A DNA stretch of 63,693 nucleotides, counting the filler, from Asterionella formosa (taxonomy: Eukaryota), in the NCBI GenBank assembly GCA_002256025.1. It is 13 parts of 13 records of this genome, joined end to end, with 100 filler letters (N's around TTAATTAATTAA, not from the genome) between each part and the next. Parts side by side here need not be neighbours in the genome. Positions count along the whole stretch, not along the records: positions 40,636 to 57,841 come from NKIB01004527.1; 12 more parts are not named here. One strand, 5' to 3'. Under the pieces are notes generated by a model. It was not told where the DNA came from. It searched no databases and was given only the letters and a program-made list of their open reading frames with translations. Both the position numbers and the translations under genes were made by a program. Every line of letters begins with the position of its first letter. The first letter of the stretch is position 1. This document shows positions 40,660 through 60,283 of the stretch, piece after piece.

Positions 40660-40797
40660 AAAGAATTATGGCACGTTACTTTGTCTATGACAAGAAAATT
40701 ATTGGGTGTTTGGTTCCACCTCGAGAAAAATGTACAGGGGGGTCCAGCAACCATAGGGGGGGTCCAGCAACCATAGGGGGGGTCCAGGACAATGAAG
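40660..40797 (+). mobile_element. Right end of another copy of the pogo-like family
   Basis: Homologous to 8230-8324 and ends GGTCCAGGACAATGAAG-TA. A 20-bp ggggggtccagcaaccatag unit is locally repeated. Confidence 0.8.
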
Positions 40798-42027: not shown

Positions 42028-44034
42028 CACCTGATACTCGGAGTACAAGTACCAGCAAGCTGCGGTCATTTTGCTGAAATTGATAATGCGATGCAGGGCA
42101 GGCGTTTAATTATATAGAAAATGTCGTGAAGTGATGCATATAGCAAATATAGCAGTACCCCACCGGTAGCCAGGATGTTGCTTGCATCAGGCGTGATAAT
42201 GACTGTGACCATGATTTATTTAGATATAATGTTACATACTTTGCTCATAGTATCGGCAAGAAGGACCCCCTGATAGGGGGTAGTGGTTATATAATTCATA
42301 GGCGTAAGGGTCATTCAGAAAATCTATTCCAATTTGCAAGTTCTAGTTGTTATCAGCAAATTCTATTCGTATTCAGTTGTAGTCAGCAAATCCAAGCCAT
42401 TTTCCGCACATTCTATTCAACATCAGCAGATTCTAAATATAGAAAGAGATGATTCCTATTTGTTGTCCAAAGCTAGAAGACGCTTCGCAGAATCGGTTCA
42501 TCAGTCAGCAAATCCGAGTCGTGTTCAGAGACTGATTCTGCAAACTGGCATCAGTAATAAGAGTATCATTTTCCTAAATTGCTTAAGAAATATTGTTTCC
42601 ATCGAAAGCTGGCCTATCTTGTCTGGCAGGCATGGGACAAATCATTGGGAGTGACTCAAAACTGAAAAGGTTGCGCTTGTCCTGGACTTCCTTAGCTAAT
42701 GCCAAGGTGGGTGCCAGGTTCCAGGTTCCAGGTACTGGTACTGGTACCGGTAGTCTATTCCTGGTAGCTATGTATTCATAGGTCTATATATATGTACACG
42801 TACAATTGTTGCATGTAGTATTTAGAATGCATTATTCAATTCTCATGTTTAGATTATGTATTACCAGGTACCAGCAGGTACCACCGTAATACCTGATGTC
42901 TCCTAGTACCCCTCTCCCTGACTGATTTTACTTAGAGGGGAGTACAAGACATTGGACCTTTTTTGATCGTCAGACGTTATGAAAAAACCAATACCAGTAT
43001 TCTAAAACGTAAATAGGCTACTAAATTAATAGAGATATTGTTTTAGTTTCAAACGGTTTCTATGATCAAGACTTTCTATTTTTGGTGCACTGGCATGCCT
43101 GAGTATTGTGATGGCATCAATAGTAATTCCTAGAGTGTGTACATTTGTGTACCTAATCCTACGACGATATGTATTAACCTGTGTAATTTCTACGACCTGG
43201 ATCATGATAGAAATTGAGATGAGTCAACCACATCACTTATATGATTGTTCGACGAGAATAATGCATGCACAAAATATTTCTGCATCATCAAGCAGCAGAC
43301 GAAATGATTCTATGAATGCTCCCGGCAAGCCAACAACATCAAGGCCAGCACTGTCTCAGCCTGTAGCATTCAGCTTGGTGATCGCGCCACAACAAGGTCG
43401 CAACTTGCAGTTCGACTATTGAAATAGAGCTCAGGACAAGAAGGATAGTATGCATCGCCATTCCAAATGTCATTGGCATTGCTCGTGTTGTTGCTGAGGA
43501 TTGTTGTTTCATGATGGTGAGGACTGGTAATAATACAATTATAGTATATATGCATTAACAAATAGCTAGTAGAATACAATAATATGCTGTTCTTTTTTCT
43601 GTTGACATAAAATATTTGTGAGTGCTGCGCCAGATGTACAAATGACGGTACAGGCATATGGGAGGATACAAGATACCAGGTTTTACGGTAGTACCCTGGA
43701 CAAGTAGAAATATTGTGTTCCCACATGATAGTGTTTATATATATACATATATATATATATATGTCTAGTATAGTTGCTACACTTTATATTATTACAAAAT
43801 TTGTTGTTGCATTCACTATCATTTCTGCCTTTCACTGAGTCGCTCCTTCTCCAAACTCTGCATATCCTTCCCCACAATTCTGTCATCTGTTCCTCCACTT
43901 GTAGCAGGCAGCAGCACAGGCAATAAGCTTGCTGAGTCGCTTGGCATCAATCTCTATAATTCAGCCATTTTCATCATTCATAGAAGATGAGGAGGGGAAC
44001 AAGGACAACAGTGATGATGACAGCATAACATGTA

Positions 44035-44250
44035 CTCCATTGTCCTGGACCCCCCAATGTAGACTGCCATGACTGAATTTGACTGATTTTACTTTAGGGG
44101 GCCCAGGACAATGAAGAGATTTCCATTATACTAGACCAAAGTTCATTAGTTCTACAGGATAGCGCACATTTTTCTAAGATGCATTAATATCACAATTATT
44201 TCCACATTGCGAAAAATAAGAGAGTTCTTCACCTTGCAAGAAAAAGGCGA
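44035..44250 (+). mobile_element. Left end of another copy of the pogo-like family (truncated)
   Basis: Homologous to 6162-6385, including the TIR, the inner inverted copy and the start of the transposase (TLQEK). Confidence 0.8.
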
Positions 44251-44958
44251 CTTCATGTTGTTATTGGCGATCTAAATTTTGTTGTCATTATTAGTGTTAT
44301 TACTCTACTTCGTTTACAATTGTATTTTCCATGTCGTTCTTAATACAGGGAGCAACTAGCAAAGCGTCATTCTCAATTTTCGTGGAGATGATTTGTATTT
44401 TCGTCAGGGTCAATTTTTGCGACAACATGATGAAGGTTCTCCAGCTGATCACAACCACTACGGTACCTGTCTTCTCGTGTGTTTTACATGTACGAAAGAA
44501 TCGGAACATGATAGCTAAATAATTTTATGCTAGTGCATACAAGGACCAAAAGAATTAAGTGGGAAATATTTTTTGTATTCGTATTTGAAATGCAATACAG
44601 CTATTTTGCGTTGAGATGGCCTACAGGGTACACAAGATTGCCTGGCACGACACAGAAGATGACCAACTACCGGTACACCCACCCAAAAGCTGTGTATTTG
44701 TGTCATCGATAAGTTGTAGCCTAGTCACCGGTGTTATGTCTTTCTTTTCTCATGATGGGAATCTGATCTCAATCGTGTCGCACGTGAAATCCGAAGAACT
44801 GATGTCTTGAAGCCTTCAGTTCTGCGGACTTGACATGGGATCCCGAATTGCGAGTTTCATGCAACGGAAGGCGATTCGGCTGGATGCGAGAGATCCTCAG
44901 TTGAGAACTGCTTTGCATCTGAAAACAGAGAAAGTCAAATAAATCGCAAATTATCGAC

Positions 44959-45764
44959 ATGCCGACCATTGCTTAGTCCGACGATAGCTATCAAGGTGGA
45001 TCAGAAGAGGTATCGGCAACCGAGGAGCAGGCTAATCCATGCGATCGCGCGAATTCAACTTCTGGGACACGCCCCGACTGTGCACTTCACGACAGCCCAT
45101 CGCCTACGAAGCTATAGGTTGCCATACAATATGTGCTGCTGATCCTCTTTCTTGTTGGTACTACCTCCAGTGATGATGGGTATAAACATGCTAAATACGC
45201 CATCTTCAATGACATTATGGTCATGCTCTTACTCGGTTTTGGGTTCCTCATGACAGACATTCCTTCGCAAGTATGGACTGGGCGCCGTCGGCCTCACCAT
45301 GATGGTAACAGCCCTTGCCATCCAGCTTGACATATTTTCTGAGCTTGCCGTGGCTGTTGGTGCTTCTGCTCGTCTAGACCTCACTCCTGGGGGTGCACTC
45401 TTGTTAGGGGTTCTGTCTGGAATTCTTTCCGTTTATGGATGTGTCTATTCCACCCCTCTTCTAGAACGAAAGCTTGCAATCCATGACACATGCGGGGTAA
45501 ATAATTTGGGTGGACTGGCAAGTATTGCTTTTTTAGCGTTGGATTCAAACGCGAAATTTCTTGATGGTGACGTTTCTGTTTTGCGGATTTGCTAGTCTCA
45601 ATTCATGGCAGTTGTGTTTTGCCTCATTGTGGCAGTTGTTTCCGGGTATACGACCGTAAAAAATTATGGTGATTGTCAAGGCCATTGGTGAATGTGACGC
45701 ATATGACGATGCGTTATGGTGGAAAGGTGGATACTTCGACAAGGAAGGGAAAGAGTCTGTGTGA
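44959..45764 (+). pseudogene. Rhesus (Rh)-type ammonium/CO2 channel pseudogene
   Basis: DIMVMLLLGFGFLMT/FLRKYG and HDTCGVNNL are Rh signatures. Premature stops, frameshifts and a missing central TM region. Confidence 0.8.
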
Positions 45765-46278
45765 TATGGTTGGGGTGAGATTGAGGGGTACATGTTTGCA
45801 TACATTTTACTTAAAAATAGATAGACTGGTGAGAGATTGGAAATAATAATCATAGACTATAGACATTTACAGATTCGCACTAAGGGTCCAGCCTGACTTA
45901 TCGGTACCCTTCTCAAGCCAGCTTGTATCGACTCGGAAACGAGGTTGAATATGCAATAAAAATAGATGATAACCTGGCAAATTTAAGATCCAAGTAGACA
46001 GTCAATTTGTGATGTTCGCCTTTAAGCGTTTTATGTAGGAGAATCCATGATGTATCGCAATCAGCGCCGATATTTGTTGCCCACTTTGAAGGAGACTATA
46101 TGTCTTACAAAGCAGATGGTGCAAAACAGAAATAGAATATCTTGAGTCGACACTGATGCGTCTAACTAGGATATTTCCGCAACTGTACGTGGTGATTCAG
46201 TATGCAGATTAAATTGACAGTAGCAGCTGCATTTTAGGAGCATGTTTGTCTATCAGGGGCAGTATCGAAATCTTTGCA

Positions 46279-47778
46279 CTATTCCTTGGTTTCGTTTCGT
46301 CTTTTCTTCTCCGCCACAAATTTGCGAAGTCGTTCCAAACTCAGAGAAAATTCGTCGTCGCTTGCAGCTGTAAACACACATCGGAAGAATCCAGGGCGCT
46401 CACTCCTCATACTCAGTCCTGGGGTAAATAAAAGACCGTAATCATTCATCAATTCCAAATACAAGGTACGTTCTCGTTCTTGCATGGATCCTGAAGATTC
46501 CATGCCATCTTTACTCACTGAAGCCGGGTCAAGAGGAGGCAAAAAATCACTTAAGTCCATCCAACAGAAGAGGCCGGAATCTGCAGAAAGGTGTGGAATT
46601 TCACATTCGTCCAAGATATTGTGCAATGCATCACCACGAGATCGAAGGCGACAATGATTTTCTTGGATAAATGTACTAGCCCAGTAATCACCACTGGTAT
46701 TATCTTGTTCCGTCATCATTTTTTCAACCAACACTTGGGTCTGTGACGAAATTTGACATAGATCATTCAGCTTTTGAAGCGGGACTTGAATGTCTGGGTT
46801 TTCAGAATAGCAAACTCCAACACGCAATCCTGACAAGGCAAAGTCCTTGCTGAGGGCGTATACCATGTGAACGTAGCTACCGAGCTCGCCAGCAATTTCC
46901 AGAGCCGATGTAAAGACGGAGGAATCCCTGTACACAGATCCAGCATAGATCTCATCGCTAACCAAATGAATTTGACGCGATCGGCACCAGATGATGCAGC
47001 CTTCAACAATATGGGGAGGGTAGCATATTCCAAGAGGATTGTTGGGATGACTCAGCAGCAGGATGCGGGGATCTTCTCCATTTTCAATCGCTCGTTGATA
47101 AGTTGCTTCGAGGCTGGTGGGAGTTGGGTAATATGCTTCAATCGGAATCGTTTCGTTGCTGTCAACTGGCGGAATATCAGCGCCACTGCCCGCAAATGTA
47201 TTAACAGGAATGATGGTGAGAGAAGCGCGAGCTGCCAAGTCAAACTCAAACGCTGCATAGTACGGAGTAGGAATCAGAACACCTTGACCAGGGTCAGCTA
47301 AGCATATGCATAAATTTTCAAGTACAGCATTGCATCCAGCTCCCAAAATGATTGATTCTGCTTGCAGAGGTCTGCTTAGCTTCAAGGTTCGCTGAAGATA
47401 ATCTGCCATGGCCTGTCGAACTCCTGGTCGGCCCTGAGTTTGCTGATAATAAATGCAATCCGTCGCAAAAGTCGTTGACCCAAACTTGGTCAGGGCAGGC
47501 ACCAACAAATCCTCTAGCATTTTATTCTCTGCAATGCCAAGCTGCAATGCGCCATCAGGAGTTTCTGGCGAGTACCGCTCGACTGCCCGAGCATCGGCAA
47601 GATACGTTGGAAGGAAGGATACTGCTTCTATGCCTCGCTTTGAGTGAGTCGCAAAGAGACGTTTGTGGGCTCGAGTACTCTTTTGTCCACTGCCGTTAGC
47701 TAGGCTTCTGCTTGGCAGGTGCCATGTAGAAGGAGACAATAGTAGATGGCGAGAGAGGTTGAAACGGTAGTTCGACAT
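46279..47778 (-). CDS. ACC-synthase-like PLP-dependent aminotransferase (class I/II), mitochondrial-type presequence
   Basis: LGIAEN, PTPYYAAF..DL, PNNPLG, SDEIY, YALSKDFALSGLRVG (PLP Lys), PG..R.GFFRC. R/S-rich, acid-free N-terminus. Confidence 0.9.
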   Translation of the reverse strand: MSNYRFNLSRHLLLSPSTWHLPSRSLANGSGQKSTRAHKRLFATHSKRGIEAVSFLPTYLADARAVERYSPETPDGALQLGIAENKMLEDLLVPALTKFGSTTFATDCIYYQQTQGRPGVRQAMADYLQRTLKLSRPLQAESIILGAGCNAVLENLCICLADPGQGVLIPTPYYAAFEFDLAARASLTIIPVNTFAGSGADIPPVDSNETIPIEAYYPTPTSLEATYQRAIENGEDPRILLLSHPNNPLGICYPPHIVEGCIIWCRSRQIHLVSDEIYAGSVYRDSSVFTSALEIAGELGSYVHMVYALSKDFALSGLRVGVCYSENPDIQVPLQKLNDLCQISSQTQVLVEKMMTEQDNTSGDYWASTFIQENHCRLRSRGDALHNILDECEIPHLSADSGLFCWMDLSDFLPPLDPASVSKDGMESSGSMQERERTLYLELMNDYGLLFTPGLSMRSERPGFFRCVFTAASDDEFSLSLERLRKFVAEKKRRNETKE

Positions 47779-48212
47779 GGGAGAATGCTGTATGAATGGA
47801 CAGCTAAATCATTACGTCTTGGGTAGTTTTACAAGAAGCCGATGCTTGCTGGGAAGTTGCGGTAAAAAGACGGTTTTTTACTATAAGGAAAACATAGCTA
47901 CATTTGTCTCTTACCGCAAGTAGCAAGGGGCAAATCTTTCTTGACTTTTATTTTACATAGGCTACCACTGGTACTGTGACCCTGGTACCAGGTACCCTTG
48001 CAAGTTGCGGTAACTGTGCTGCAGGTAAAGATTTAGCCATCTTTATCCCATATTATTGTTAATTTACGCAAAATTTCCCATGTGTCATGGAAGGACCGAC
48101 GAAACGTCAACTTGTAATATCAGTGGTCCATCCCTCCTCATCCAATAACAACTACCCTGGTTTACGTAGACAGAGTATATCCTCAATTTTTCATTAATAC
48201 CTATATTTGATC

Positions 48213-49235
48213 ATGGTTGTCCGAAACATTCTCGAGATAGCTCTGGTACTGACGACTCTGACCAATTTTGTGACAGCATGGAGCCAGCCACAGCTGTTTC
48301 CGATGCGTCGCACATCGGCGCTCCCCATGATCTCGTTCGGAAAGTCTAGGTCGAACAAAAGCTTTCCCAAAGATGTCAAAGAAGCAGTATCACGGTGTCG
48401 AGCTTCTGTGCAAGAGGCTTTGGGAAAGCGTGTGTCACGGATGGATATTGAGTTTCCCGTCGGTGCTAATTTTGGCATTGAAAAACTAAGAGAGAAAAGT
48501 GCGAAACAATCGTCGTCGGGAGGTGACGCTGGGGTACCTACGAAGGCCCTCCTGGATACCAGTGATCGCGAACTGACCAGAATCTTTGTTGAAATGTTTC
48601 AACCGCTCGGTGGTGAGGCCATCTGCGTGATCTTCACGGATATGGCACTCGCTGATAAGGCAAGAAGCATTTGGAAAGACGATTCCTCAGCAACTTGCCG
48701 AATATTGTCACTGGGGAGAAAGAAGTCCGGCGCATCTCAAAAAAAGACAAAGGGTTTCGCGGCCAAGATGGCTGAAGAAGTTGATGAAGACGAAGGAGGT
48801 CCATTTGCATTGCCCGAAAAAACTGAGCTCGCTATATTTGTTGCTCCTGGACCAAAGGAACTTCTCGTAGTGGAACAGGTTTGCAACAAAGCTGGTATGG
48901 GCACTCTAGTTATCCTTTTAAATGCTCGACTGGCCTCTCTCTCAAACTTTGGCACAGAGGCCGCTAAAGTGCTCTTCTTGGAACAGTTTGAACCTGTGTT
49001 TTCCCTCTGCGCTGCTCCTCAGGAAGTAGCACCAAGTTGCTTGCTCCATCGATCGTATCCCAATGATTGGATGATGGCAAGAAAGCCAAAGGTTGGCCAA
49101 CCAAAGCTGATATTGGAGCAATGTTATCGACCGACTGTAGAAAACTGTAAGGCGGCGTATGACTCCATGGAAATAGGAGAGTTGGAACAAGGAGTTGAAA
49201 ACGTCTTGGAGAATGTGGCTGCCTGGTTCAACTAA
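48213..49235 (+). CDS. Plastid-targeted DUF1995-family protein
   Basis: Signal peptide ending VTA-W plus a basic transit peptide (diatom bipartite leader). FP..A..A..RMDIEFP, VILLNARL, FEPVF.L and LHRSYP.DW motifs. Confidence 0.75.
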   Translation: MVVRNILEIALVLTTLTNFVTAWSQPQLFPMRRTSALPMISFGKSRSNKSFPKDVKEAVSRCRASVQEALGKRVSRMDIEFPVGANFGIEKLREKSAKQSSSGGDAGVPTKALLDTSDRELTRIFVEMFQPLGGEAICVIFTDMALADKARSIWKDDSSATCRILSLGRKKSGASQKKTKGFAAKMAEEVDEDEGGPFALPEKTELAIFVAPGPKELLVVEQVCNKAGMGTLVILLNARLASLSNFGTEAAKVLFLEQFEPVFSLCAAPQEVAPSCLLHRSYPNDWMMARKPKVGQPKLILEQCYRPTVENCKAAYDSMEIGELEQGVENVLENVAAWFN

Positions 49236-49695
49236 TTTGTGTCGATTGCGATCCTCTTAATTTGATTATATCCTTTTAATTCGATGCCATCTATAGTATC
49301 TAGTAAGCCTCGAACTGGGACAGAGGTTGCACTCTCAAAGGTATCAGGTAATGACGATTTCTTTTAAGGCCAATTAATAAGTTCGATTGACCATCAATTA
49401 CATGCTGGTATGCAATGGAATTCACGTGGAGGCTAATGCTTGGGTCTGAACTTGTAAAGAATTTATTTCCTTATCCACTATATGGATAACGACAACACTT
49501 GGTCATGTGTCATGTGTGTAATGTATAGTCATTGATACAAGAGAAGATGAAGCACAACTCATGGTGTCATTGGTAACAGTGTGCATGAGTGCCATACCCA
49601 ACAGAACCCCGTGAAATGACAAGAAGTACGCACCACCATCCCACTCTAATTCCATTTATTTGCAGTCTACTGTCCAACTGCTTGAAATATGATAT

Positions 49696-51585
49696 TTAGT
49701 TGTCGTGGATCACATGATAAAAGCCAGATTTTGACCCATATTTGCTGTAGGACACAGGATACTCTGGATATTTGGGCTGAGGGAACTCCAGATTTTTGGG
49801 CACATCCTCCTCACAATCAGGCTTGTCACCCTTAGATCCTTTAGAGCCCTTCGATCCCTTAGAACCTTTACCTCCCTTTCCCTTACCTCCCTTGGAACCT
49901 TTACCTCCCTTACCTTTACCTCCCTTTCCCTTACCTCCCTTGGAACCTTTACCTCCCTTTCCCTTACCTCCCTTGGAACCTTTACCTTCCTTTCCCTTAC
50001 CTCCTTTTGATCCCTTGGAAACAGGCTCTGCTACAGGTGAGACTATTGGTGCGGCAACAGGCTTGTATACGGGGTGTATTGGCACGGGAATTGGTGCAGG
50101 GTAGTCGCCCTGGTAAGGAGCAGTAGCCGGTTTTGGGTAGGAGTAAGGCGCGGCTTCGGGCATGCCAGCCTTGGATCCGCCAGACTTGGATCCACCAGAC
50201 TTGGATCCACCAGACTTGGATCCACCAGACTTGGATCCACCAGACTTGGATCCACCAGACTTGGATCCACCAGACTTGGATCCACCAGACTTGGATCCAC
50301 CAGACTTGGATCCGCCAGACTTGGAACCACTTGATGATGAACCATTGTCATAAGATCCTGCATTGGAGCCTTCTCCAGTGGAATAGGACCCCGAATCGTA
50401 TGAACGCGTCGTGTAAGATGAATATCCAGTTGCAGCGTTGGAGCCATACTCAGACATGTCGGAATTGGAGCCATACTCCTCGCTAATATGTGCATCGATG
50501 TTTGACTTGGCATCTCCCTTACCCTTTCCAGATTTTGAGCCAGACTTGGAATCTCCCTTACCCTTTCCAGATTTTGAGCCAGACTTAGAATCTCCCTTAC
50601 CCTTTCCAGATTTTGAGCCAGACTTGGAATCTCCCTGACCCTTTCCAGATTTTGAGCCAGACTTGGAATCTCCAGACTTGGATCCAATGTGGTAGTCATC
50701 GCCCTCATATGGAGCAGCAACAGGCTTTGGGTAGGAGTAGGGAGCAGCTTCAGGCATACCAGCCTTGGAGCCACCAGACTTTGAACCTCCCTTGCCCTTG
50801 CCAGACTTTGAATCTCCAGACTTCGAGCCTCCCTTGCCCTTGCCAGACTTTGAATCACCAGACTTAGAGCCTCCCTTTCCCTTTCCAGACTTGGAACCAG
50901 ATTTGGAACCTGTTTGGTAGTCATCACCCTCGTATGGAGCAGCAACAGGCTTTGGGTAGGGGTAAGGAGCAGCTTCAGGCATGCCGGCCTTGGAGCCACC
51001 AGACTTTGAACCTCCCTTGCCCTTGCCAGACTTTGAATCTCCAGACTTCGAGCCCCCCTTGCCCTTGCCAGACTTTGAATCTCCAGACTTCGAGCCTCCC
51101 TTTCCCTTTCCAGACTTAGAACCAGTTTGGTAGTCATCACCCTCGTATGGAGCAGCAACTGGCTTTGGGTGGGGCCAAGGGGCAGTTTGGGGCATGCCCG
51201 CCTTTGATCCACCAGACTTCGATTTTGTGACATATCCATCGCTGTATAGGGGATATTCTGGAATTTCGGGATTGGGGAACTCTGGATTTTCAGGAGCGAC
51301 CTCCTCACAATCAGGCACTCCCCCCTTAGATACCTTTGATCCTTTCGATCCCATGCCCATACCTCCCTTGCTACCCATGCCCATACCTCCCTTGCTACCC
51401 ATGCCCATACCTCCCTTGCTACCCATGCCCATACCTCCCTTGCTACCCATGCCCATTAGGGCGCGGCCGACATGTACGGGCGTTCCTTTGATCTGGGTAA
51501 ATTCCGTTATTCCTCTTAGTTGAGTACTTTCGGCATTGACCAGACAAAGCAACGCCAAAGAGGCGAATGCAGAGGTTACTTTCAT
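49696..51585 (-). CDS. Secreted silaffin/cingulin-like biosilica-associated protein (629 aa)
   Basis: Signal peptide (residues 1-18), RXL site (RAL 41-43), dense K-x-x-K and GSK repeats, Ser/Gly/Lys/Tyr/Pro bias, intronless. Repeats vary mostly at synonymous positions. Confidence 0.8.
   Translation of the reverse strand: MKVTSAFASLALLCLVNAESTQLRGITEFTQIKGTPVHVGRALMGMGSKGGMGMGSKGGMGMGSKGGMGMGSKGGMGMGSKGSKVSKGGVPDCEEVAPENPEFPNPEIPEYPLYSDGYVTKSKSGGSKAGMPQTAPWPHPKPVAAPYEGDDYQTGSKSGKGKGGSKSGDSKSGKGKGGSKSGDSKSGKGKGGSKSGGSKAGMPEAAPYPYPKPVAAPYEGDDYQTGSKSGSKSGKGKGGSKSGDSKSGKGKGGSKSGDSKSGKGKGGSKSGGSKAGMPEAAPYSYPKPVAAPYEGDDYHIGSKSGDSKSGSKSGKGQGDSKSGSKSGKGKGDSKSGSKSGKGKGDSKSGSKSGKGKGDAKSNIDAHISEEYGSNSDMSEYGSNAATGYSSYTTRSYDSGSYSTGEGSNAGSYDNGSSSSGSKSGGSKSGGSKSGGSKSGGSKSGGSKSGGSKSGGSKSGGSKSGGSKSGGSKAGMPEAAPYSYPKPATAPYQGDYPAPIPVPIHPVYKPVAAPIVSPVAEPVSKGSKGGKGKEGKGSKGGKGKGGKGSKGGKGKGGKGKGGKGSKGGKGKGGKGSKGSKGSKGSKGDKPDCEEDVPKNLEFPQPKYPEYPVSYSKYGSKSGFYHVIHDN
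50171..50320. repeat. 15-bp coding tandem repeat x10 (SKSGG)
   Basis: ttggatcc(a/g)ccagac x10 inside the silaffin-like gene. Confidence 0.95.
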
Positions 51586-53329
51586 TGAATTTGCCCTTCG
51601 AAGATCTTGTCAGTTATATTCGAAAGATTGCCTGTGATTTGACAGATAACAAATTTTTTGTGAGAGGGAGGGTATGCTTTGTATGGCAGGCCACATCATG
51701 CTTATTTTCGAAGTTACTTAGGTAGTGATGACGACAAAAAAATAGCTTCCCTCCAAAAAAATCGCACCACACATGCTCACGATGGAAAATTTTGTCCGCA
51801 AGGTGATTTGTTACATTGGATTTAACAACCAACACATGAGAGGCGTCAGCTTTCATACTCTCCCGATTGAACACAGCGAAAGATTAGACGAAAGACAAGT
51901 GATATTCCAAATGGGACTAGATAGGCAACGGGTTCAGAGGCCATAAATCAAATCCTTCAGGACAATTCAAGATGAATCACGAACCAAGGGCCGATTTCAA
52001 CAAGTTAAAGATAAGAGAAACCGAGCAAATGAAAGACTTAACAGCCTTGGTGTGGATCAAGATGCAGGAGCGAGACTTAAAACTCCTTCGATAAGCCGAC
52101 GTAGCATCAAAATGCAGGAACGTGAATTGACGAACCTCGTTCGAGAAGCCAGCGCAGCTTGAATCATCTGAGGATTCTTCGAACGCTGGTCGTCGTCAAC
52201 CGTGTACAGATGTGTTATCAGAGGTGCAGAAAAGGATTTCATCATGATCGTACCTTTCAGATGGGGTGAACTGATGTTGGAAAGAAATGTCCTCCTGGCT
52301 AATTTGGCACCCCTATCAGACAGGACGAGCTGCACGCTTGCCACACATGGGAAAAATTTGGGACTCGTAACTGTGCAAGTTACAAATATATATTCAGGGA
52401 CGAATAGCAATTGAATGATCTTTACATGATTCCGATAAGCCGTAGTGGACCCCAAATTTTCGATGTATCTCTCTTTTTGGTCGAATCCAGTTTTAAATTC
52501 ATATTAGATCATGAATATATGATGATTTGATGTAAACAAATATATTGATTCTACATAGACATATTAATTAATGTAATGTACAGTCCGAAGTGGAGGAGCT
52601 TTCTCAACGTCTGTCGCGTACCGGTCGACTTCCGGGCAGAATGTACCTGCCTGTCGGCAGAATGTCGAAAGCAATGGTACCTGGTAGGCGATTCTACATA
52701 CATACAGTACATAGAATATGTACAGGTTGAAAATACATGAATACAACTTGCAAGTTTCGGGACATACGGTAATTTTGTTTTTCGTGTACCATTCCCAAAA
52801 CTGACAAATATTCCCCGACTCGGCAGCCGTTAAGAAATCAAAGTATGAAACTTCTAACGGCTCGCGCCCGCAGGCCGTATAAGGACGATTGGACAAAATT
52901 CGATAAATTCAGATAATTCGGGACAAAACAGGTTCTGACGAATTGAAACATTGGGTCAAAGTTTTTAGGTAATACTGACAATTGATTGGCCCGGTTAGCG
53001 TCTTGCAAAGCCAAGCTGGCCACACTGGATGCACATGTAACATTTTCTTGGGTGTTGACCAGTACAATATCCGCAGTAGGTAGCTCATCACCAGTGATAA
53101 TATGCATACCAGTAATAGAATGCACTTTGCCTGCATTGAATGGACAGAGTGCACTTCCTTTTCCTTTGATGATCATTGCAGCCACAATGATTGCAGAAAT
53201 TCATTCCTTTTTTCCTTATTTCCTGATGTTCCTCTCTAAATGCAACACCAGAACCGTAAGTCTTACCTGATTTGTTGTCTTCCCTTTCTTGTTTGACTGT
53301 TTCAAATCGTGCTGCATGTACTTTTTCGT

Positions 53330-54590
53330 TTAGTTTCGTTTCCTCTTTTGTTTGAATTGCGCTTTGTAGGCTCCATTGTCACTACATCGCTTTTCCTTTT
53401 GTCTCCAGAAGGATTCTTGCAATGCTGACATCTGCATTCCACATTGCTCATGTACATCCCTTGTGTATTGTGTTGCTCCTTGTGTGTGTTGCCCAGCAAC
53501 CAAAGCCACTCGATATTGAAGGCCTCCGGATCCTGCAAACATCTTGTTTTTCGGACATCGTCGCAACACTGCAATGTTCATTGCCTCATTAATCTGTGTG
53601 TCAAAGCGATGATGCAATGATAGCAGCTTTTCGCCTTCGACTTTCGTTGCAACTTGCAACATCAACCATTCGTATAATGGTTTTTCCTTTTCCTTGTCGT
53701 GATATTTTCCGTTACTAACCATTTTTCCTGATTTTGCAGGGCACCATGATGTCTCAGAGCAGTAATCATTTGAGCCAAGCAAATAAATGGTTGATTGGCG
53801 CCTTGGAGTAAATAATAAATTCTGTCAGAGAGAGGTTCCGATTTTTTAATCCAAGCGCCATAGTCAATTTTCAACCGGAGACAATCTGCTTTTGAGGGAC
53901 GCTCAAGGGAGACACGGCCGTTAGATTTTAGAAAAGCAGGGCATAGAAGGACCCATATTCTGTGTGATGGGTCAGACAGAAATTTAGGTTCAGGTACAGT
54001 CAGTGGAAGAAGGCATCCTTTGTCCGACTTCTTTAATCCTTTCAATGTTCTTGGCCATTGGAAGGATGGCTGTAGTTTCAATAATTCCTTATAGGACCAT
54101 TGAGAAACAGCTCTAATAGTCGAATCATCATCACAGATGACTGTCGAGTAGATAGCATTGTATTTCATAACTGCATCAATCATCATTTCCACACTGGCAT
54201 CTGGTTCTGTTGCCTTCGAACGACCAGCAGTTACGTGATTCTTGGGGCAAACATGTTCCTTGGTTGATTTCTTGTACTGTATAGCCCTGTCGCACACATT
54301 GCCGACCTTAGTAGATTTCACTCTGTAGTCTAGTATCTTTTTCGTGTAGCCACCAATTCAAAAAGCATGTCCACTTATGGAGTTGTACTTTTTTCCGCCG
54401 CAGGATTGCTGCCTCCAGCCCATATTGTCACTAACAGTGAGTCATGGCATATTGAGTACAGATGTACCAGTAAGACTGTTCCACCACTGAAAATCACGTC
54501 CTTTGTAAGCCCGCCCAGTCATCACGTTCATGCACAATTACATTGCTGGTACATAATATTTTTGATACTCATTGTCACACCATGCTCAAT
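53330..54590 (-). pseudogene. Mutator-like (MULE) transposase, frameshifted
   Basis: MGWRQQS..KYNSISGHAF..GGYTKKILDY, CPKNH..GRSKATEPDA, ICDDDS, DPSHR, FDTQINEAMN..CPK. Several frameshifts. Confidence 0.75.
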
Positions 54591-56998
54591 GCATTGTTCT
54601 TGGTTTCAAAAATGCAGTAATTATCCATTTGACCAGAGTGAATAAAGACAAATAATTAACACACTGACAGAGATCAAACGAAAAGACCGCAAAAGAACGG
54701 GAAACCCGGATATACGGCATTTTTCTGTGGTCTTTTGCGAATTGTTTTGGAAAACCATGAGGAGAGGTCGATTTTTGATAAAACACAGCTTTTGTATGTG
54801 ACTTTTCGTACTTCGGAGTTTCTGTCAACTCCCAGTATACAAAAGCCTTAATTCACATCTTTTGGTTCGATTATTCATGTTAATCCTGTATTCGCAGTCT
54901 CATTTGTTATGTAGCTACCATAAAAGTGCGTAACTCCTTGTAGCAGTGCTACTAGGATTATTATATCATGATTGTACTATCTATGTTGTGTTTGATATAA
55001 GTATCAAAAAGGAAAGCATTGTTGTCATTTTTCGTCGAGATATTCGCTATTTTCACCATGGTCAATGCTGTGACAACATATTGATGAAGGATTCTCCAGC
55101 CGCTTGCAACTACACAACTACCGGTGCGTATTCAGTATCATAGTGGTTATAGCTACAGTTTGATTAGGTACATAGCTAGGTTGTAGGTGACTTTGATGGC
55201 AGCAGCCAGCGTTGAAACAATGACGTCACACAAAGAAAAAATTGCTACTTTAAACAAATTCTTGTCTTACAGGTTCCTGCATTTGAGCCCCTAGTCAAAA
55301 TTAAAAGAGGGGTTGCCGAAATTCCCTGGAACTACGAATTTCTATAGAATAATTTTGAATGACATGCATGATTCCATTTGAAATATTTAAATGAGTGGAA
55401 AATCACGCGTATTTACATAGATTCCTTTTTCGAATTCGCTATATATATACAGTCTACATAGCTCGATGTATATAAATACCCTTCACTAGGATCGTCATGT
55501 ATGCGTCATATGACCCAGCAGCATGGCAAACGACCCACCACTGTCTCGGCAAATATTTTAAGTGCAATCTACGAGTGGTACGCATATGTCAAATGATTAT
55601 CATCTACTGGTATTGGTACTGGTACTCTTAGTGGATGTGGTACTTGGTACCGGCATACCAGCAATTCCCCAAGAAATTTTTAAATGTGTATCCAGTGTGG
55701 CCTGTGTGGTTTTGCAAGACCTTGCAAACCAGGCCAATCAAATATCGGTAAGAATTGAACTTGACCCATCAAAATATTTATAGTGAAGCGGGCAGTTACA
55801 ATGGAATTTTTTGTACAGGCGATTGCAGGACGAAAAATTGAATCACAACAAGACTATTATTCTGATGATGACATGGCACTTTTGAGACCGTTAAAAAGGC
55901 CGACATTGTCGAATTTTTGGACCGTGACAGCTCAACGTTGGCAGGGTTTGAAGAAGAGTTAAGTACATAGGTAATCTTCAAATAGCCTCAGAAGTTAACT
56001 TTCTGTGAGAGAGTGCAGAAAGGATCTTTGGTTTTTTAACTAGACCAAATAAGCAAGTTGGCCCAGTAGTTCTGGCAGCACGTCCCTCCGAAGTCGGCTT
56101 CCTCCAGAAGCTGTAGCTTTTCTTTCAACTTCTAATGCCTCTTGTCACTCCCCTTCCATCAAACTACTCATCTTCGGAGATCGCAGCGGCTTTATTGCCT
56201 CTCTTTACTACCATACTATTCTTCCACCATTACCACGCTAAATTTCTCCCTGTCTCTGGACGCCCAGACCACTCTCACACCAAGGAAACTCCTATTCCAA
56301 CTTCGGTTCAAACACTAAAACGACAAGTCCGCTTAAATAATTTCTCCTGTCTCCTCCGAGGTGGTCACTCCTTAGCTGATCTCATTGTCAAAGGGCGTAT
56401 CCACATCCACACATGCAAAGCACCCAAATCTCTCCTCACTCTAATCACTCTGTTCACCCAACCTAGATCCTATGGATTGATCAATTTAGCGGAGACCTTT
56501 CTTTAGATTGCGGATGGCTCCTCTATTCATCTTCTCGGGTTAATCGTAGTGACCTTCAATCCCAGTTGCAATCTCTCTCTCTCTCTCTAAATATTTGGGG
56601 AAGCTCCCCCTTTCTCTGGCGCCAACTAGATGCCCCCCCCCCCTTCGATTTCAGCTTATGCAATTTTCATCGTGTCCTCCCCCGCCCCCAACTAGGCGAA
56701 AGTCAGGCGCTTACTTCAGGATATCATATGTCTTCAAGAACAGGAGTCAAACACCTCTCATTACCCCTTTCAGTGTTCCATGCATGCTCTTTCTTTCTCC
56801 ATTATTCATTGGCCTCACTGATCAAGACTATGCTCGAAACTCCGAGGACAACAACAGTTTCAAGCCTCCGAAGCAACGACTGTTCAGGTGAGCGGTCTTA
56901 TTTCCCTTTCCCATGTATTCCCAGACTCGTTTGACACTCTTGGGAATGCCCTTCTTAGTCTCCCTGAGCCGCAGCCCGGCCACAATTACCTCCTCCGC

Positions 56999-57841
56999 AC
57001 ATCTAAGACGCCGTTTACGGCACTTTTTCGAATTTATGTCTAAAGTGACGTATTTATGCTACTTTTTTAAAATATTATGTTACTTTTCTAAAATATTATG
57101 TTACTTTTTTGAAATATTATGCTACTTTTTCCCTAATTTATTCGGGTTAAACAAAAATTTATTTCACTTATCGAATAATTATGTGATCACACCAATAATT
57201 ATGTGTGTTCGTGACAATAGCTATATGTTGACTAACTAGCCATCGCAACAGTATAAAAGCGAAATTATGCTGCTCCGCCCCAATATTATGCTGCTTTCAC
57301 CATATAATGAACGAAAGAGTCGCCAATTCCGATACACTTATTATTTTTTCCGCTCCGACATATCACTTTGATCTGAACTGGCAAAGAATAACACATGCAA
57401 GAGGAAGATTCACACTGTAGAATTCAGCACACGTAGTAGTAGTAGTTGATGTTGTAGACCCATTGTTTAGTCATTGTTGATTGTAGAGATTACAATAGCC
57501 TGCCAGATTAGAAATAAAGCACCGTTGGTACTCGTTGAGCATCGTTTAGCATTGCATGTCTCCGTAGTGAATCGAAATTGAGATGTGCCGCAATGGCCTT
57601 CTCCGTTTCGGAGCAGCTACAAATAGTCTACAGTGATAACTCTAGCAAGTACAATATAGAAAAAGAAGGAAAGGATGCTGAGTAGCTGACAACAATTGAA
57701 TCCGTTATTTCGTTAAGAAACAGCTGTTGCATATTTCAACCTTGCATGTCGCCGTAGTGAGTCAAAATTGAGATGTGCCACAATGGCCTTCTCCGTTTCG
57801 GAGCAGCTACAAATAGTCTACAGCAATAAGTCGAGCAAGTA
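56999..57841. mobile_element. Second copy of the CATCTAAGACG repeat family, with internal ~100-bp duplication
   Basis: 56999-57427 matches 36599-37022. 57552-57652 is duplicated at 57742-57841. Confidence 0.75.
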
Positions 57842-57941
57842 NNNNNNNNNNNNNNNNNNNNNNNNNNNNNNNNNNNNNNNNNNNNTTAATTAATTAANNN
57901 NNNNNNNNNNNNNNNNNNNNNNNNNNNNNNNNNNNNNNNNN

Positions 57942-58767
57942 CATTGGGGTCATTGTCAACATCATTCTGGCCTTTGTCTTGGGGGAACATCACGTACACT
58001 TACCCGGAAGCAATCATAGTGACCACGACCATGACCACGACCATGAACACCATCACAAACACGACGAGGAAAACGATGATGATCATGAAGAGAACTATCA
58101 TGACAGTCACGAGCATGACAGTCATGCACACGACCACCATGAAGAAACCGTGGCACTTTCCGGGGCACACGATCACGACAACGTCGGTTATGGATCCGTG
58201 CATCCACTCCACGCGGACGAAGTTTTACCTGCTAAGAAGCCTCGCAACATAAATCTAGAAGCGGCCTATCTCCACGTATTGGGAGATCTTGCCCAAAGCA
58301 CTGCGGTCTTGGTTGCTGGCGCCATCATTTGGTTCAAACCTGAATGGCACATTGTGGATCCTATTTGCACCCTTCTTTTTTGTGCCATGGTTTTCTATTC
58401 CACACTCGCAGTTCTGAGAACTTCTATTAGTGTTTTGTTGGAAGAAGTGCCTCCAAATATCAATTGGGAGGACATTTATGCGACGATTTCAGCAATTGAT
58501 GGAGTGGAAAATGTCCATGATTTGCACATTTGGTCCATCTCACATGGTATTCCAAGTCTGAGTGTCCACTGCATGTCGACAAATACAGACGAGGCGCTGA
58601 AGAATGTTTGTTTGGCGCTTAAACAAAAAGGTATCAAGCACGCAACGATTCAAGTACAGCAGCTGCCTGCTGTGTCGTGCGTAACCTGCGACTCAGTGGA
58701 TGCATGTGGGACTACGCGCATTTCACAGCTTTTGGACGCTTCAAAGCTGCAAGGGATTATTGTGTAA
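57942..58767 (+). CDS. Cation diffusion facilitator (ZnT/MTP1-like zinc transporter), 5'-truncated
   Basis: His-rich loop, NINLEAAYLHVLGD (HxxxD), DPICT, LLE.VP and VHDLHIWSI..LSVH motifs. Confidence 0.9.
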
Positions 58768-59112
58768 TATGGTGTCCTGTCAGGCTATTTACTATCTCGC
58801 TGTTGATTGGATAAGCTGTGCGCACCATTTGTTTTAAAGGCACATTCTTCCATGATCAAAATAATTGAGTTTTCTCGACTCGAGTACTCGAGTTCTAGGG
58901 GCTAAGAATCAAGATAAAACAGGATAGAACTGCACTAATTTAGTGTTGCAAATGAAATGTAAATACTTTTCGCTTCTACAGAACTAACAATAGTAAGTGC
59001 TATACCTTGGGANNNNNNNNNNNNNNNNNNNNNNNNNNNNNNNNNNNNNNNNNNNNTTAATTAATTAANNNNNNNNNNNNNNNNNNNNNNNNNNNNNNNN
59101 NNNNNNNNNNNN

Positions 59113-59834
59113 TTACAGAAGCAGATCGGCTTGGAAAACGTAAGGGTCTCCCCCCTGGCTTTGTCGGGCTTGCGTGTCGACATTGCTTTGGAGGTTATGG
59201 ATCCGGTCGCTTCTTCCCCTCCAGTATCAAGACCCTGTCGGATACTAGCAAAACTCTTAATGTACTGTACAATCACATGATGCGTTGCCGTAAGTGTCCT
59301 TCAGACGTGCGTGATTGCCTTGAAAAACTTCGTATCCATCATGACGATGAGCGTGCCAAGATGAAGTTCGGTTCCCAGAAAGCCTTCTTCGCCAAGATTT
59401 GGGGCCGTCTTCATGATGGCATTAATACTCCGCAAGCGCCGCCGACTGCTGGCATGAAGCGCAAAATGGCCTCGTATGAACCGCCCCTAAGTAAGAGGGC
59501 GTCCTTCGAGCCACCGAACTTGTCCCATGCGCAGGGGTTTTCACCGGCCAGGATGCAGCAAATGATGAATAGTGTGGCTGCTCAGCAGCAAGAGCAACTT
59601 CATCACCAACATCAGGCGCAAATGCAGCAAAATCAAATAATGCATCATCATGAACAACAACACCATCAGCAACTTCAAATGTACAATCACAGTAGCATGC
59701 AACAACACATGCCTCCTCAACTGCCACCAAACCTGGCTCATTTACAACAGCAAATGATGGGAGGCGGTTTGGATGCCTTGTCGCGACAAGCAACAGAGAA
59801 TGACACGAAGTACCACCATCGTAGTCACATGTAA
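59113..59834 (+). CDS. 5'-truncated protein with CxHC..H..C putative Zn-binding domain and Gln/His-rich tail
   Basis: Frame is open from the contig edge: GFVGLACRHC..GRFFPSSIKTL..NHMMRCRKCP..GSQKAFF.KIWGRLH, then an NLS-like KRK and a polyQ/H region. Confidence 0.7.
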
Positions 59835-60283
59835 CGCTGGTGGAATGAAATTTTGGGACTGTAATTTTTGTACATATTTTTAGGGCTTGCATGGCATCTC
59901 CACTTTTCTCTGATTTGCTACTTTATCGCTAGCGCAGACTACAGACGACGTCATAAATAGCTGGAAGTTTTAGTATCGCACACTTCGTTGCATGAATACG
60001 CTTAATTGCAAGTTGTTATCAATAATATGTAGTGGGGTCCACCGATTTGAGCAGATGTAGCAGGTTTCTGACTAAATTCATGAATACCTTGTATTCGAAT
60101 TTATCCAAATGAAATTCTGGATTGTAGCGACGAAATGGCAATGGCAAAGGCCTGGACAGGACTAAGTGGGAATTGGAAGTCCANNNNNNNNNNNNNNNNN
60201 NNNNNNNNNNNNNNNNNNNNNNNNNNNTTAATTAATTAANNNNNNNNNNNNNNNNNNNNNNNNNNNNNNNNNNNNNNNNNNNN

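What the first reader, a model, noticed from the sequence alone, without database searches (positions are those of the whole stretch)
49696..51585. Highly modular silaffin/cingulin-like protein: candidate new biosilica scaffold family
Seen: signal peptide, LRG and RAL motifs, then distinct blocks: (MGMGSKGG)x4-5, SKSGKGKG(G/D) arrays, a Ser/Tyr/acidic spacer, (SKSGG)x10, GKGGKGSK arrays, and four copies of SKAGMP..AP(Y/W).(Y/H)PKP.(A/T)APY.GD(D)Y. Established: diatom silaffins and cingulins are secreted, RXL-processed, KxxK-rich disordered proteins with modified Lys and phosphorylated Ser. Inference: this is a silica-deposition protein. I do not recognise the Met-Gly and Pro-Tyr modules from described silaffins.
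Basis: partly seen in the sequence, partly recalled or inferred. Interest (0 to 1): 0.8.

Follow-up and report, generated by a model that had tools for sequence, protein, structure and literature searches.

The report
Silaffin/cingulin-like secreted repeat protein gene
This is a real, transcribed gene of a freshwater alga, most likely a diatom, for a secreted, floppy, lysine-, serine- and glycine-rich repeat protein of the kind diatoms build into their glass cell walls; it is a new example of a known class, not a proven new family.

Summary
It is transcribed. Poly(A) RNA contigs cover about 49394-51633. One contig is spliced across a canonical GT-AG intron in the 5' UTR.

The protein meets every sequence-level criterion published for silaffin-like and cingulin-like proteins:
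- a signal peptide and one RXL site (RAL 41-43);
- 27 K[SG][SG]K motifs;
- 7 matches to the pentalysine-cluster regex, against 0.15 expected;
- K-rich arrays alternating with Pro/Tyr modules.

Copies of the Pro/Tyr module differ mostly by synonymous changes, so the peptide is under selection. No Pfam family, no relative and no confident fold were found. That is typical of this class.

The run labels are lake or freshwater. A neighbouring gene sits nearest a diatom protein cluster.

Verdict: a new member of the silaffin-like/cingulin-like class. Silica association is inferred, not shown. "New family" is unsupported because no relatives were retrieved. Repeat copy numbers are not independently confirmed.

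The parts
52254..52282 (-). Non-coding exon 1 (5' UTR). The likely transcript start is near 52282.
   Evidence: The 27 loose letters of a poly(A) RNA contig (X6, table 7) match the window exactly and only at 52256-52282. A second, unspliced X6 contig is inferred to end near 52282: its 416 nt are laid on 51867-52100 from its letter 183, which leaves 182 letters beyond the laid stretch (table 8).
51632..52253 (-). 5' UTR intron of 622 nt with GT...AG ends.
   Evidence: On the minus strand the sequence reads ...CTGAAAG|GTACGA at 52254|52253 and ...TCACAG|GCAATC at 51632|51631. The junction is seen in one poly(A) contig with 27 nt on the short side, which is below the tool's 31-nt rule.
51586..51631 (-). 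5' UTR part of exon 2. An in-frame TGA lies 27 nt upstream of the ATG.
   Evidence: Read from the sequence. No upstream exon can extend this reading frame.
49696..51585 (-). Coding sequence: 629 codons plus the stop codon (49696-49698), in a single exon.
   Evidence: Poly(A) and metatranscriptome contigs cover its unique segments with 0 differences (table 8).
51532..51585 (-). Signal peptide, residues 1-18 (MKVTSAFASLALLCLVNA).
   Evidence: The 9-residue hydropathy peaks at 2.74, K2 provides the charged n-region, and V-N-A occupies positions -3 to -1. No other hydrophobic segment exists: the maximum 19-residue hydropathy after residue 20 is 0.96. SignalP was not available.
51457..51531 (-). 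Putative propeptide, residues 19-43, ending in the only RXL site (RAL 41-43).
   Evidence: The role of RXL as a processing site is taken from PMC4557024.
51337..51456 (-). Met-Gly array, residues 44-83: (MGMGSKGG) x4 plus MGMGSKGS.
   Evidence: Period 24, 4.5 copies, 100% matches. Codons are listed.
51250..51315 (-). N-terminal PDCEE...EFP...PEYP module, residues 91-112, containing Cys93.
   Evidence: Regex match. It aligns without gaps to the C-terminal copy: 11 identical codons, 4 synonymous and 7 non-synonymous differences.
51130..51207 (-). Pro/Tyr module 1, residues 127-152. This is the Trp/His variant.
50995..51120 (-). K-array A1, residues 156-197: (SKSGKGKGG SKSGD) units.
   Evidence: Compared with A2 there are 38 of 42 identical codons, 4 synonymous and 0 non-synonymous differences.
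50917..50994 (-). Pro/Tyr module 2, residues 198-223.
50770..50907 (-). K-array A2, residues 227-272.
50692..50769 (-). Pro/Tyr module 3, residues 273-298.
50506..50685 (-). K-array B, residues 301-360: (SKSGSKSGKGKGD) x4. It holds a region of five-Lys-within-14-residue spans at 321-360.
   Evidence: Period 39, 4.4 copies, 96% matches.
50332..50505 (-). Lys-free Ser/Tyr/acidic spacer, residues 361-418 (S 29%, Y 12%, D+E 14%).
   Evidence: Covered with 0 differences by the DNA contig X1 50285-50541 and the poly(A) contig X6 50300-50522.
50176..50325 (-). (SKSGG) x10, residues 421-470.
   Evidence: Period 15, 11.1 copies, 96% matches.
50101..50175 (-). Pro/Tyr module 4, residues 471-495.
   Evidence: Against module 3 there are 9 synonymous and 2 non-synonymous differences.
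50020..50100 (-). Pro-rich linker, residues 496-522 (P 33%).
49822..50019 (-). GKGG/GSKG array, residues 523-588. It holds all 7 pentalysine-regex matches and a run of 16 K[SG][SG]K motifs.
   Evidence: One poly(A) contig skips 81 nt in frame, 49861->49943 (table 5).
49756..49821 (-). C-terminal PDCEE...EFP...PEYP module, residues 589-610, containing Cys591.
49699..49755 (-). C-terminal tail, residues 611-629 (VSYSKYGSKSGFYHVIHDN). It has no hydrophobic end, so there is no sign of a membrane or GPI anchor.
49394..49695 (-). 3' UTR. AATAAA lies at 49467-49462 on the minus strand.
   Evidence: The poly(A) contig depth is 4008-6487 in the bins 49394-49675 and falls to 92 in the bin 49300-49393 (table 2).

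Best explanation
The gene encodes a secreted, intrinsically disordered matrix protein of the silaffin-like/cingulin-like class. It comes from a freshwater alga with a secondary plastid, most probably a diatom.

Shown: an intact single-exon coding sequence, transcription, a spliced 5' UTR, the modular repeat anatomy, and purifying selection on the Pro/Tyr modules.

Inferred mechanism:
1. The signal peptide takes the precursor into the ER. A propeptide is removed at RAL43.
2. The roughly 57-kDa mature chain (pI about 9.8 unmodified) travels to the silica deposition vesicle.
3. The Lys clusters, especially 524-588, act as silica-targeting signals and as sites for polyamine or methyl modification. 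The many Ser residues are phosphorylated, which makes the chain zwitterionic and self-assembling.
4. The K/S/G arrays bind and accelerate polycondensation of silicic acid.
5. The four Pro/Tyr modules and the two single-Cys end modules link chains, by Tyr cross-links and disulfides, into an insoluble organic scaffold. This would resemble the cingulin microrings or the AC3362 matrix.
For: Gene and transcript:
- Intact ORF.
- 20 of the 24 listed runs, from 13 studies, hold the stretch or part of it. 8 of these are on record as RNA.
- I laid 4 of the 24 listed runs. Poly(A) contigs cover about 49394-51633 at word depths of about 220-25000. Depth is 5-37 upstream and 92 downstream. One contig is spliced GT-AG on the minus strand.
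- An in-frame stop lies before the ATG.

Sequence criteria for the class:
- Signal-peptide-like N-terminus and one RXL site. No transmembrane segment.
- K 15.9%, S 18.3%, G 23.8%.
- 27 K[SG][SG]K motifs, 16 of them in one run.
- 7 matches to K..K..K.{1,2}K..K, against a mean of 0.15 in 1000 composition-preserving shuffles, none of which reached 7. The preprint 10.1101/2021.09.18.460806 reports this regex in 29% of silica-associated proteins and 1.5% of background proteins (passages).
- KSGK occurs 10 times. KSGK is the 'type e' motif of the commonest silica-proteome cluster (passages).
- The lysine-enriched regions of CinW2 and CinY2 printed in PMC9650480 are the same K/S/G type (passages).
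- K-rich and Tyr-rich regions alternate, as described for cingulins (PMC4557024).

Selection and expression hints:
- Synonymous differences outnumber non-synonymous ones between Pro/Tyr module copies (9 vs 5; 9 vs 2) and between K-arrays (4 vs 0).
- AAG makes up 79 of 100 Lys codons, against 62 of 117 in four neighbouring ORFs.

Disorder: the AF2 single-sequence model has mean pLDDT 36.6 and no secondary structure.

Organism:
- Run labels read lake water, freshwater or algae metagenome.
- The neighbouring aminotransferase is nearest an Atlas cluster whose commonest phylum is Bacillariophyta.
- The neighbouring DUF1995 protein has a signal-peptide-like start followed by Trp, which I recall as typical of targeting to complex plastids.
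Against: - There is no experimental link to silica: no localisation, no Si-responsive expression and no proteomics.
- The class is defined by composition, so passing its screens is weak evidence for function. Not all silaffin-like proteins found by screens have been shown to sit in silica (preprint).
- No homolog was found, not even T. pseudonana cingulins or silaffins.
- There is only one RXL site, so the protein is not a Sil1p-type polyprotein.
- Tyr is only 4.8% overall.
- The diatom assignment rests on one feature-based look-alike plus habitat labels. The window is a concatenation of contigs, so only genes in 40636-57841 speak for the organism.
- Contig depths are a poor measure of expression, and one 'RNA' contig (X2) runs unspliced through the intron.
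Confidence: 0.6

Rival explanations
1. The protein is an extracellular adhesive or mucilage protein, for example in colony-linking pads or stalks. It would act as a polycation in complex coacervates with acidic polysaccharides, with Pro/Tyr/Lys modules working like mussel-foot-type sticky units. It would not be embedded in silica.
For: - It is secreted, Lys-rich, has Pro/Tyr modules and is disordered.
- PMC4220933 (passages) used exactly a high-Lys plus high-Tyr plus signal-peptide screen to look for diatom adhesives, and it discusses coacervation.
- I recall that many freshwater planktonic diatoms form colonies.
Against: - The one protein from that screen that was localised (AC3362: K 15.5%, Y 8%, KG repeats) turned out to be in the biosilica-associated insoluble matrix, not in the adhesive.
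- Tyr here is 4.8-5.1%, below the >10 mol-% quoted there for the mussel FP-3 and FP-5 proteins.
- Seven pentalysine-cluster matches are a silica-targeting feature.
Confidence: 0.17
2. The protein is a secreted cell-surface coat or metal/redox-buffering protein unrelated to silica formation. The N-terminal Met-x-Met array would bind Cu(I) or scavenge oxidants, and the polycationic body would bind the anionic wall or polysaccharide.
For: Five MGMG units lie directly after the predicted RAL cleavage site. That Met-x-Met motifs bind Cu(I) in other proteins is recalled knowledge, not tested here.
Against: - The Met array is only 40 of 586 mature residues. The rest is silaffin-like.
- SMSM repeats occur in bona fide silica-associated proteins.
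- No metal-binding family matched.
Confidence: 0.08
3. The long ORF is a by-product of coding-neutral tandem repeats or a mis-assembly, or it belongs to a non-diatom organism in a mixed sample, so the silaffin reading is moot.
For: - The window is stitched from contigs with N44-TTAATTAATTAA-N44 linkers.
- The sample labels include metagenomes.
- Short-read contigs break in the arrays, and one lacks 81 nt.
- A second frame on the same strand is open for 398 codons.
Against: - The gene lies inside one uninterrupted 17.2-kb piece, 40636-57841.
- Its unique segments are reproduced with 0 differences in DNA and RNA runs of other studies.
- It has a spliced, polyadenylated transcript on the ORF's strand.
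- There is a synonymous excess between module copies in this frame.
- The signal peptide and start context fit this frame only.
- The plastid-type DUF1995 neighbour argues for an alga.
Confidence: 0.05

Closest known systems
Y-type cingulins (CinY1-4) of Thalassiosira pseudonana, components of the NH4F-insoluble girdle-band microrings
   Same: Signal peptide, an RXL site, no transmembrane segment, and K/S/G lysine-enriched regions of the KSGK type. These alternate with Tyr-rich regions, and the chain is disordered and repetitive.
   Different: - No detectable sequence homology.
- The aromatic modules are Pro-rich 25-26-mers (AP-Y-x-Y-PKP-x-x-APY-x-GDDY) with only 14-16% Tyr.
- It also has a Met-Gly array, a (SKSGG)10 array and two single-Cys PDCEE end modules.
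- The UM motif could not be compared.
- Location is unknown.
AC3362 of Amphora coffeaeformis (PMC4220933)
   Same: A secreted, modular protein with Lys at about 15.5% (15.9% here), Pro-rich and Tyr-bearing modules and KG dipeptide repeats. It has no homologs among known wall proteins and was shown to sit in the insoluble biosilica-associated matrix (passages).
   Different: AC3362 has Tyr 8% and a Thr-rich region.
Silaffins (C. fusiformis Sil1p; T. pseudonana Sil1-4)
   Same: Signal peptide, RXL, KXXK clustering, pentalysine clusters and a high Ser content available for phosphorylation.
   Different: - There is a single RXL, so it is not cut into short peptides like Sil1p.
- It is much more Gly-rich.
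- The defining chemistry (polyamine-Lys, phospho-Ser, release by NH4F, silica precipitation) is untested.
P0054, an unnamed 592-aa protein from an ENA assembly
   Same: A Pro/Tyr/Trp-rich acidic module followed by a GKGSKG array, in the same order as residues 480-578 here. Pairwise BLASTP gives 41% identity over 101 columns, E 1e-4.
   Different: It carries a C-terminal heme peroxidase domain (PF00141, E 5e-22), which is absent here. The similarity may be purely compositional, and its organism is unknown.

Membership tests
Silaffin-like proteins (operational class; screen of PMC5501833) | N-terminal ER signal peptide | tested here: met
   Manual hydropathy and the -3/-1 rule. SignalP was not available.
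Silaffin-like proteins (operational class; screen of PMC5501833) | Repeated KXXK motifs (X = S or G) separated by 1-6 residues | tested here: met
   27 motifs, 16 of them in one run at 524-585. The other 11 stand more than 6 residues apart.
Silaffin-like proteins (operational class; screen of PMC5501833) | Canonical RXL protease site | tested here: met
   One site, RAL 41-43.
Silaffin-like proteins (composition screen that I recall from Scheffel et al. 2011; paper not held) | A stretch of about 100 aa with Lys >=10% and Ser >=18%. The thresholds are recalled and not verified. | tested here: met
   Met from residue 150 onward in the stop-to-stop frame (K 19%, S 19%). It is the only frame in the window that passes.
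Silica-targeted proteins with pentalysine clusters | Five Lys in 12-14 residues; regex K..K..K.{1,2}K..K | tested here: met
   7 regex matches, all within 524-588. 28 five-Lys spans of 12-14 residues. Shuffles give a mean of 0.15 matches.
Silaffins in the strict, biochemical sense | Released from biosilica by HF/NH4F; Lys carrying polyamines or methyl groups; phospho-Ser; precipitates silica in vitro | not testable with these tools
   Needs biochemistry.
Cingulins | Alternating KXXK-containing regions and Tyr/Trp-rich regions (PMC4557024) | tested here: met
   Four Pro/Tyr(Trp) modules are interleaved with K-arrays.
Cingulins | Sequence relatedness to CinY/CinW; the conserved 17-residue UM motif after the signal peptide in CinY1-3 | tested here: inconclusive
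   No cingulin appeared among the hits, but two of the searches scored only the 8000 candidates sharing most words.
Cingulins | Part of the NH4F-insoluble girdle-band microrings | not testable with these tools
   Needs localisation.
Mussel-foot-like Tyr-rich adhesive proteins (criteria quoted in PMC4220933) | Tyr >10 mol-% with high Lys | tested here: not met
   Tyr is 4.8% in the full protein and 5.1% in the mature protein; Lys is 15.9%.
Frustulins / pleuralins | Cys-rich ACR or PSCD domains (recalled) | tested here: not met
   Only 2 Cys in the mature protein (93 and 591). No Pfam hit.

The most novel reading that the evidence does not exclude
The protein founds a lineage-restricted scaffold type in freshwater diatoms. 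Two matching single-Cys PDCEE-EFP-PEYP caps at the two ends would allow head-to-tail disulfide polymerisation. Four selected Pro/Tyr modules would be substrates for peroxidase-driven Tyr cross-linking; compare P0054, where a similar module-plus-array unit is fused to a heme peroxidase. A Met-Gly array at the processed N-terminus would make assembly redox- or metal-sensitive. Together these would give a programmable, insoluble silica-templating polymer distinct from cingulin microrings.
Probability: 0.12. Interest if true: 0.6.

Novelty: new member of a known kind. Interest (0 to 1): 0.35.

Why it matters
According to the passages I read, biosilica matrix proteins have been characterised biochemically in only two diatom species, both marine as I recall. 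My searches turned up no characterised silaffin-type protein from a freshwater diatom.

This gene is expressed in lake metatranscriptomes. It offers a clean, modular candidate with separable K-arrays, Pro/Tyr modules and Cys caps. It could be used to test how targeting, cross-linking and silica formation are divided among modules. It could also serve as a marker transcript for frustule synthesis by this taxon in lakes.

On its own it does not change the current picture of biosilicification.

Tried and rejected
Searches that found nothing or only noise:
- Pfam on the protein: 0 families at E<=1.
- Exact look-up in the collection of about 15 billion proteins: absent. Its two neighbours are present.
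- Word-seeded homology search, whole protein: 7 hits. The 6 retrieved are low-complexity matches: five (P0002-P0005, P0008) carry SKSGDSKSG-type arrays inside coiled-coil proteins that look bacterial, and P0007 carries a GKGK-type array. The seventh (P0006, not retrieved) is named ribonuclease R. All were rejected as compositional.
- Region 1-160: none at E<=0.01.
- Region 471-629: 5 hits, all through the GKGG array. Only P0054 is of interest, as an analogue.
- Exhaustive HMMER search of residues 85-160 against 1.84 billion representatives: 1 hit, P0052, an unrelated repeat protein.
- Metagenome scan with six 8-residue patterns: 306 stretches matched and 3 passed tblastn. One (L002) is a chance PENPEFPN word in a 346-residue open frame, cut at both contig ends, with no other likeness to P0001. 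Two (L001, L003) are short QTAPWPHP matches with a stop codon close by. Rejected.
- ESM Atlas: no usable hit.
- Own-scan findings by place, sequence and words: nothing relevant.
- Literal search for five short peptide motifs in the paper library: 0 papers.
- AF2 single-sequence fold: mean pLDDT 36.6, so no fold search was made.

Not available:
- No whole genome is held for the window, so paralogues could not be sought.
- Scheffel 2011 and Poulsen 2013 are not held. Their criteria are quoted second-hand.

The bacterial promoter/terminator scan of the 3' region is irrelevant to a eukaryote.
Full report
**1. The observation**

Under the standard code the minus strand of window 49696-51585 is open for 629 codons. 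The composition is G 23.8%, S 18.3%, K 15.9% and P 7.2%, with only 3 Arg and 3 Cys.

- a hydrophobic N-terminus (residues 1-18);
- LRG (23-25) and RAL (41-43);
- (MGMGSKGG) x4 plus one variant;
- two SKSGKGKGG/SKSGD arrays and one SKSGSKSGKGKGD array;
- a Lys-free Ser/Tyr/acidic spacer (361-418);
- (SKSGG) x10;
- a GKGG/GSKG array (523-588);
- four 25-26-residue Pro/Tyr modules (127-152, 198-223, 273-298, 471-495).

In addition, a 22-residue module PDCEE..P.N.EFP.P..PEYP occurs once near each end (91-112 and 589-610). Each copy carries one of the two Cys of the mature protein.

This is not chance. It is the only stop-to-stop frame of 80 aa or more in the window with K>=10% and S>=18% per 100 aa. 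It is the only one of 41 ORFs of 100 aa or more that matches the pentalysine regex.

**2. Is it a gene?**

The stretch, or part of it, is held by 20 of the 24 listed public runs, from 13 studies. Eight of these are on record as RNA. The labels read lake water, freshwater or algae metagenome.

I laid 4 of the 24 listed runs:
- The unique segments of the gene are reproduced with 0 differences in a DNA run (X1), a lake metatranscriptome (X2) and a poly(A) library (X6).
- In X6 the summed contig depth is about 220-25000 from 49394 to 51649. It is 5-37 upstream and 92 downstream. Contig depth is a poor measure of expression, so I read this only as 'transcribed'.
- One X6 contig ends at 51633 with 27 further letters.

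Those 27 letters occur exactly once in the window, at 52256-52282. On the minus strand the boundaries read CTGAAAG|GTACGA and TCACAG|GCAATC. This gives a canonical 622-nt GT-AG intron in the 5' UTR, which also fixes the transcribed strand. The short side of the junction has 27 nt, just under the tool's 31-nt rule, and only one contig shows it.

An in-frame TGA lies 27 nt before the ATG, so Met1 is the start. AATAAA lies at 49467-49462, where the poly(A) depth falls.

Caveats:
- Short-read contigs break inside the arrays.
- One poly(A) contig lacks 81 nt (27 codons) of the GKGG array.
- An X2 contig runs unspliced through the intron.
- Module order and reading frame are therefore secure, but copy numbers are not.

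**3. Selection**

Between copies of the Pro/Tyr module, synonymous differences outnumber non-synonymous ones:
- module 1 vs 3: 9 vs 5;
- module 3 vs 4: 9 vs 2;
- module 2 vs 3: 5 vs 1.

The two A-type K-arrays differ by 4 synonymous and 0 non-synonymous codons. The peptide sequence, not only the DNA repeat, is therefore conserved.

The Met-Gly and SKSGG arrays are nearly identical at DNA level, which points to recent expansion or conversion. Lys codons are 79% AAG, against 53% in four neighbouring ORFs.

**4. Whose gene?**

The window contains 24 runs of N. They form 12 linkers of the form N44-TTAATTAATTAA-N44, so the window is a chain of contigs. The gene lies in one uninterrupted 17.2-kb piece (40636-57841). 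That piece also holds an aminotransferase (46279-47778, -) and a DUF1995 protein (48213-49235, +).
- Both neighbours occur letter for letter in public metagenome collections.
- The aminotransferase's nearest Atlas cluster is eukaryotic, with Bacillariophyta the commonest phylum (score 0.98).
- I recall DUF1995 as a family of photosynthetic organisms.
- The DUF1995 copy here starts with a signal-peptide-like stretch followed by Trp. I recall this as typical of import into complex plastids.

I conclude that the organism is a freshwater alga with a secondary plastid and probably a diatom. This is inferred, not shown.

**5. What it is like**

No Pfam family matches and the Atlas gives no hit. The single-sequence AF2 model has mean pLDDT 36.6 and no secondary structure.

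No relative was found:
- The exact sequence is absent from the collection.
- The whole-protein search returned 7 hits. Five are bacterial-looking proteins with SKSGDSKSG arrays, one has a GKGK-type array, and one, not retrieved, is named ribonuclease R.
- Region 1-160 gave none.
- An exhaustive HMMER search with residues 85-160 gave one unrelated repeat protein.
- A metagenome scan gave three spurious loci.
- Region 471-629 gave only array-driven hits.

This absence is expected for the class. [quoted passage not shown]

**6. Tests against published criteria** (passages read)

- PMC5501833 screens for a signal peptide plus repeated KXXK (X = S/G) motifs spaced 1-6 residues apart. It notes RXL sites and defines a pentalysine cluster as five Lys in 12-14 residues. 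Here there are 27 K[SG][SG]K motifs, 16 of them in one run; 28 five-Lys spans of 12-14 residues; and one RXL site.
- The preprint gives the regex K..K..K.{1,2}K..K, found in 29% of silica-associated proteins and 1.5% of background proteins. Here there are 7 matches, all in 524-588. Shuffles give a mean of 0.15, and 0 of 1000 reach 7.
- KSGK, the 'type e' motif of the commonest silica-proteome cluster, occurs 10 times.
- The lysine-enriched regions printed for CinW2 and CinY2 in PMC9650480 are of the same K/S/G type.
- Cingulins are described as alternating KXXK regions and Tyr/Trp-rich regions (PMC4557024). The four Pro/Tyr(Trp) modules interleaved with K-arrays reproduce that plan.
- AC3362 of Amphora coffeaeformis has K 15.5%, Y 8%, Pro-rich modules and KG repeats. 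It was found with an 'adhesive' screen but was located in the insoluble biosilica-associated matrix (PMC4220933). It is the closest described analogue and weighs against the adhesive rival.

**7. Mechanism** (inferred)

1. ER import, then removal of residues 19-43 at RAL.
2. A mature chain of about 57 kDa with pI 9.8.
3. Lys clusters target the protein to silica and are modified. Ser phosphorylation balances the charge and drives self-assembly.
4. The K/S/G arrays promote silica polycondensation.
5. The Pro/Tyr modules and the two terminal single-Cys modules cross-link chains into an insoluble scaffold.

One lead for the Tyr cross-linking idea is P0054, an unnamed 592-aa protein. In it, Pro/Tyr/Trp-rich modules and GKGSKG arrays in the same order are fused to a heme peroxidase (pairwise E 1e-4; PF00141 E 5e-22). 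The preprint also proposes peroxidase-mediated Tyr cross-linking for the insoluble matrices. This is an analogy, not homology.

**8. Rivals**

- A polycationic adhesive or mucilage protein (0.17).
- A surface coat or metal-binding protein (0.08).
- An artefact or a non-diatom origin (0.05).

Evidence for and against each is given in the Rival explanations section.

**9. Novelty and score**

The gene is unannotated as far as I can tell. The exact sequence is not in the collection and its motifs are in no held paper. It has idiosyncratic modules.

However, the class is compositional and each diatom has many members; I recall 'dozens' without having checked it. No relatives were found that would make this a family. 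I file it as a new member of a known kind, with interest 0.35.

Paralogues, the cingulin UM motif and diatom transcriptomes could not be examined. Supplements that I could not see may hold sequences that bear on the comparison.

Noticed in passing
window 17312-17411, 34679-40635 and 57842-62623 (24 N runs): The N runs come in pairs as N44-TTAATTAATTAA-N44, a six-frame-stop linker. From 34.7 to 40.6 kb and from 57.8 to 62.6 kb they recur every 1169-1172 bp. The pieces between them are unrelated to each other (24-26% identity). The window is therefore a chain of separate contigs, many about 1.07 kb long, and synteny across linkers means nothing.
   Followed up: partly
P0054 (protein from an ENA assembly; no window coordinates): An unnamed 592-aa protein. 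Its first ~250 residues alternate Pro/Tyr/Trp/Glu-rich modules with GKGSKG-type lysine arrays, which looks cingulin-like. Its C-terminal half is a heme peroxidase (PF00141). It is a possible self-cross-linking wall protein.
   Followed up: partly
window 49861-49943: A poly(A) RNA contig (run X6) skips 81 nt in frame within the GKGG array. This equals one 81-bp repeat period. It is either an allele with one unit fewer or an assembly collapse.
   Followed up: no
window ~51777 (inside the 5' UTR intron): One DNA contig of run X1 follows the window up to about 51777 and then continues for 255 letters that are not in the window. Another X1 contig follows the window from 51745 onward. This suggests a structural variant or second haplotype upstream of the gene.
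   Followed up: partly
window 48213-49235 (+): DUF1995 protein (E 9e-30). Its N-terminus looks like a signal peptide followed by Trp, consistent with bipartite targeting to a complex plastid. It converges tail-to-tail with the silaffin-like gene; the two stop codons are about 460 bp apart.
   Followed up: partly
window 10154-11248 (-) and 37075-38103 (-): Copia-type reverse transcriptase fragments (PF07727 RVT_2, E 3e-28 and 3e-11), on pieces of the window other than the one carrying the gene.
   Followed up: no
window 26449-28941 (-): An 830-aa class-C GPCR-like protein: an ANF-receptor ligand-binding domain plus a 7tm_3 domain, in a single long ORF.
   Followed up: no
window 50043-51239 (-): A second frame on the same strand stays open for 398 codons across the repeats. 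It is a side effect of stop-free repeat units and shows no sign of separate coding.
   Followed up: partly
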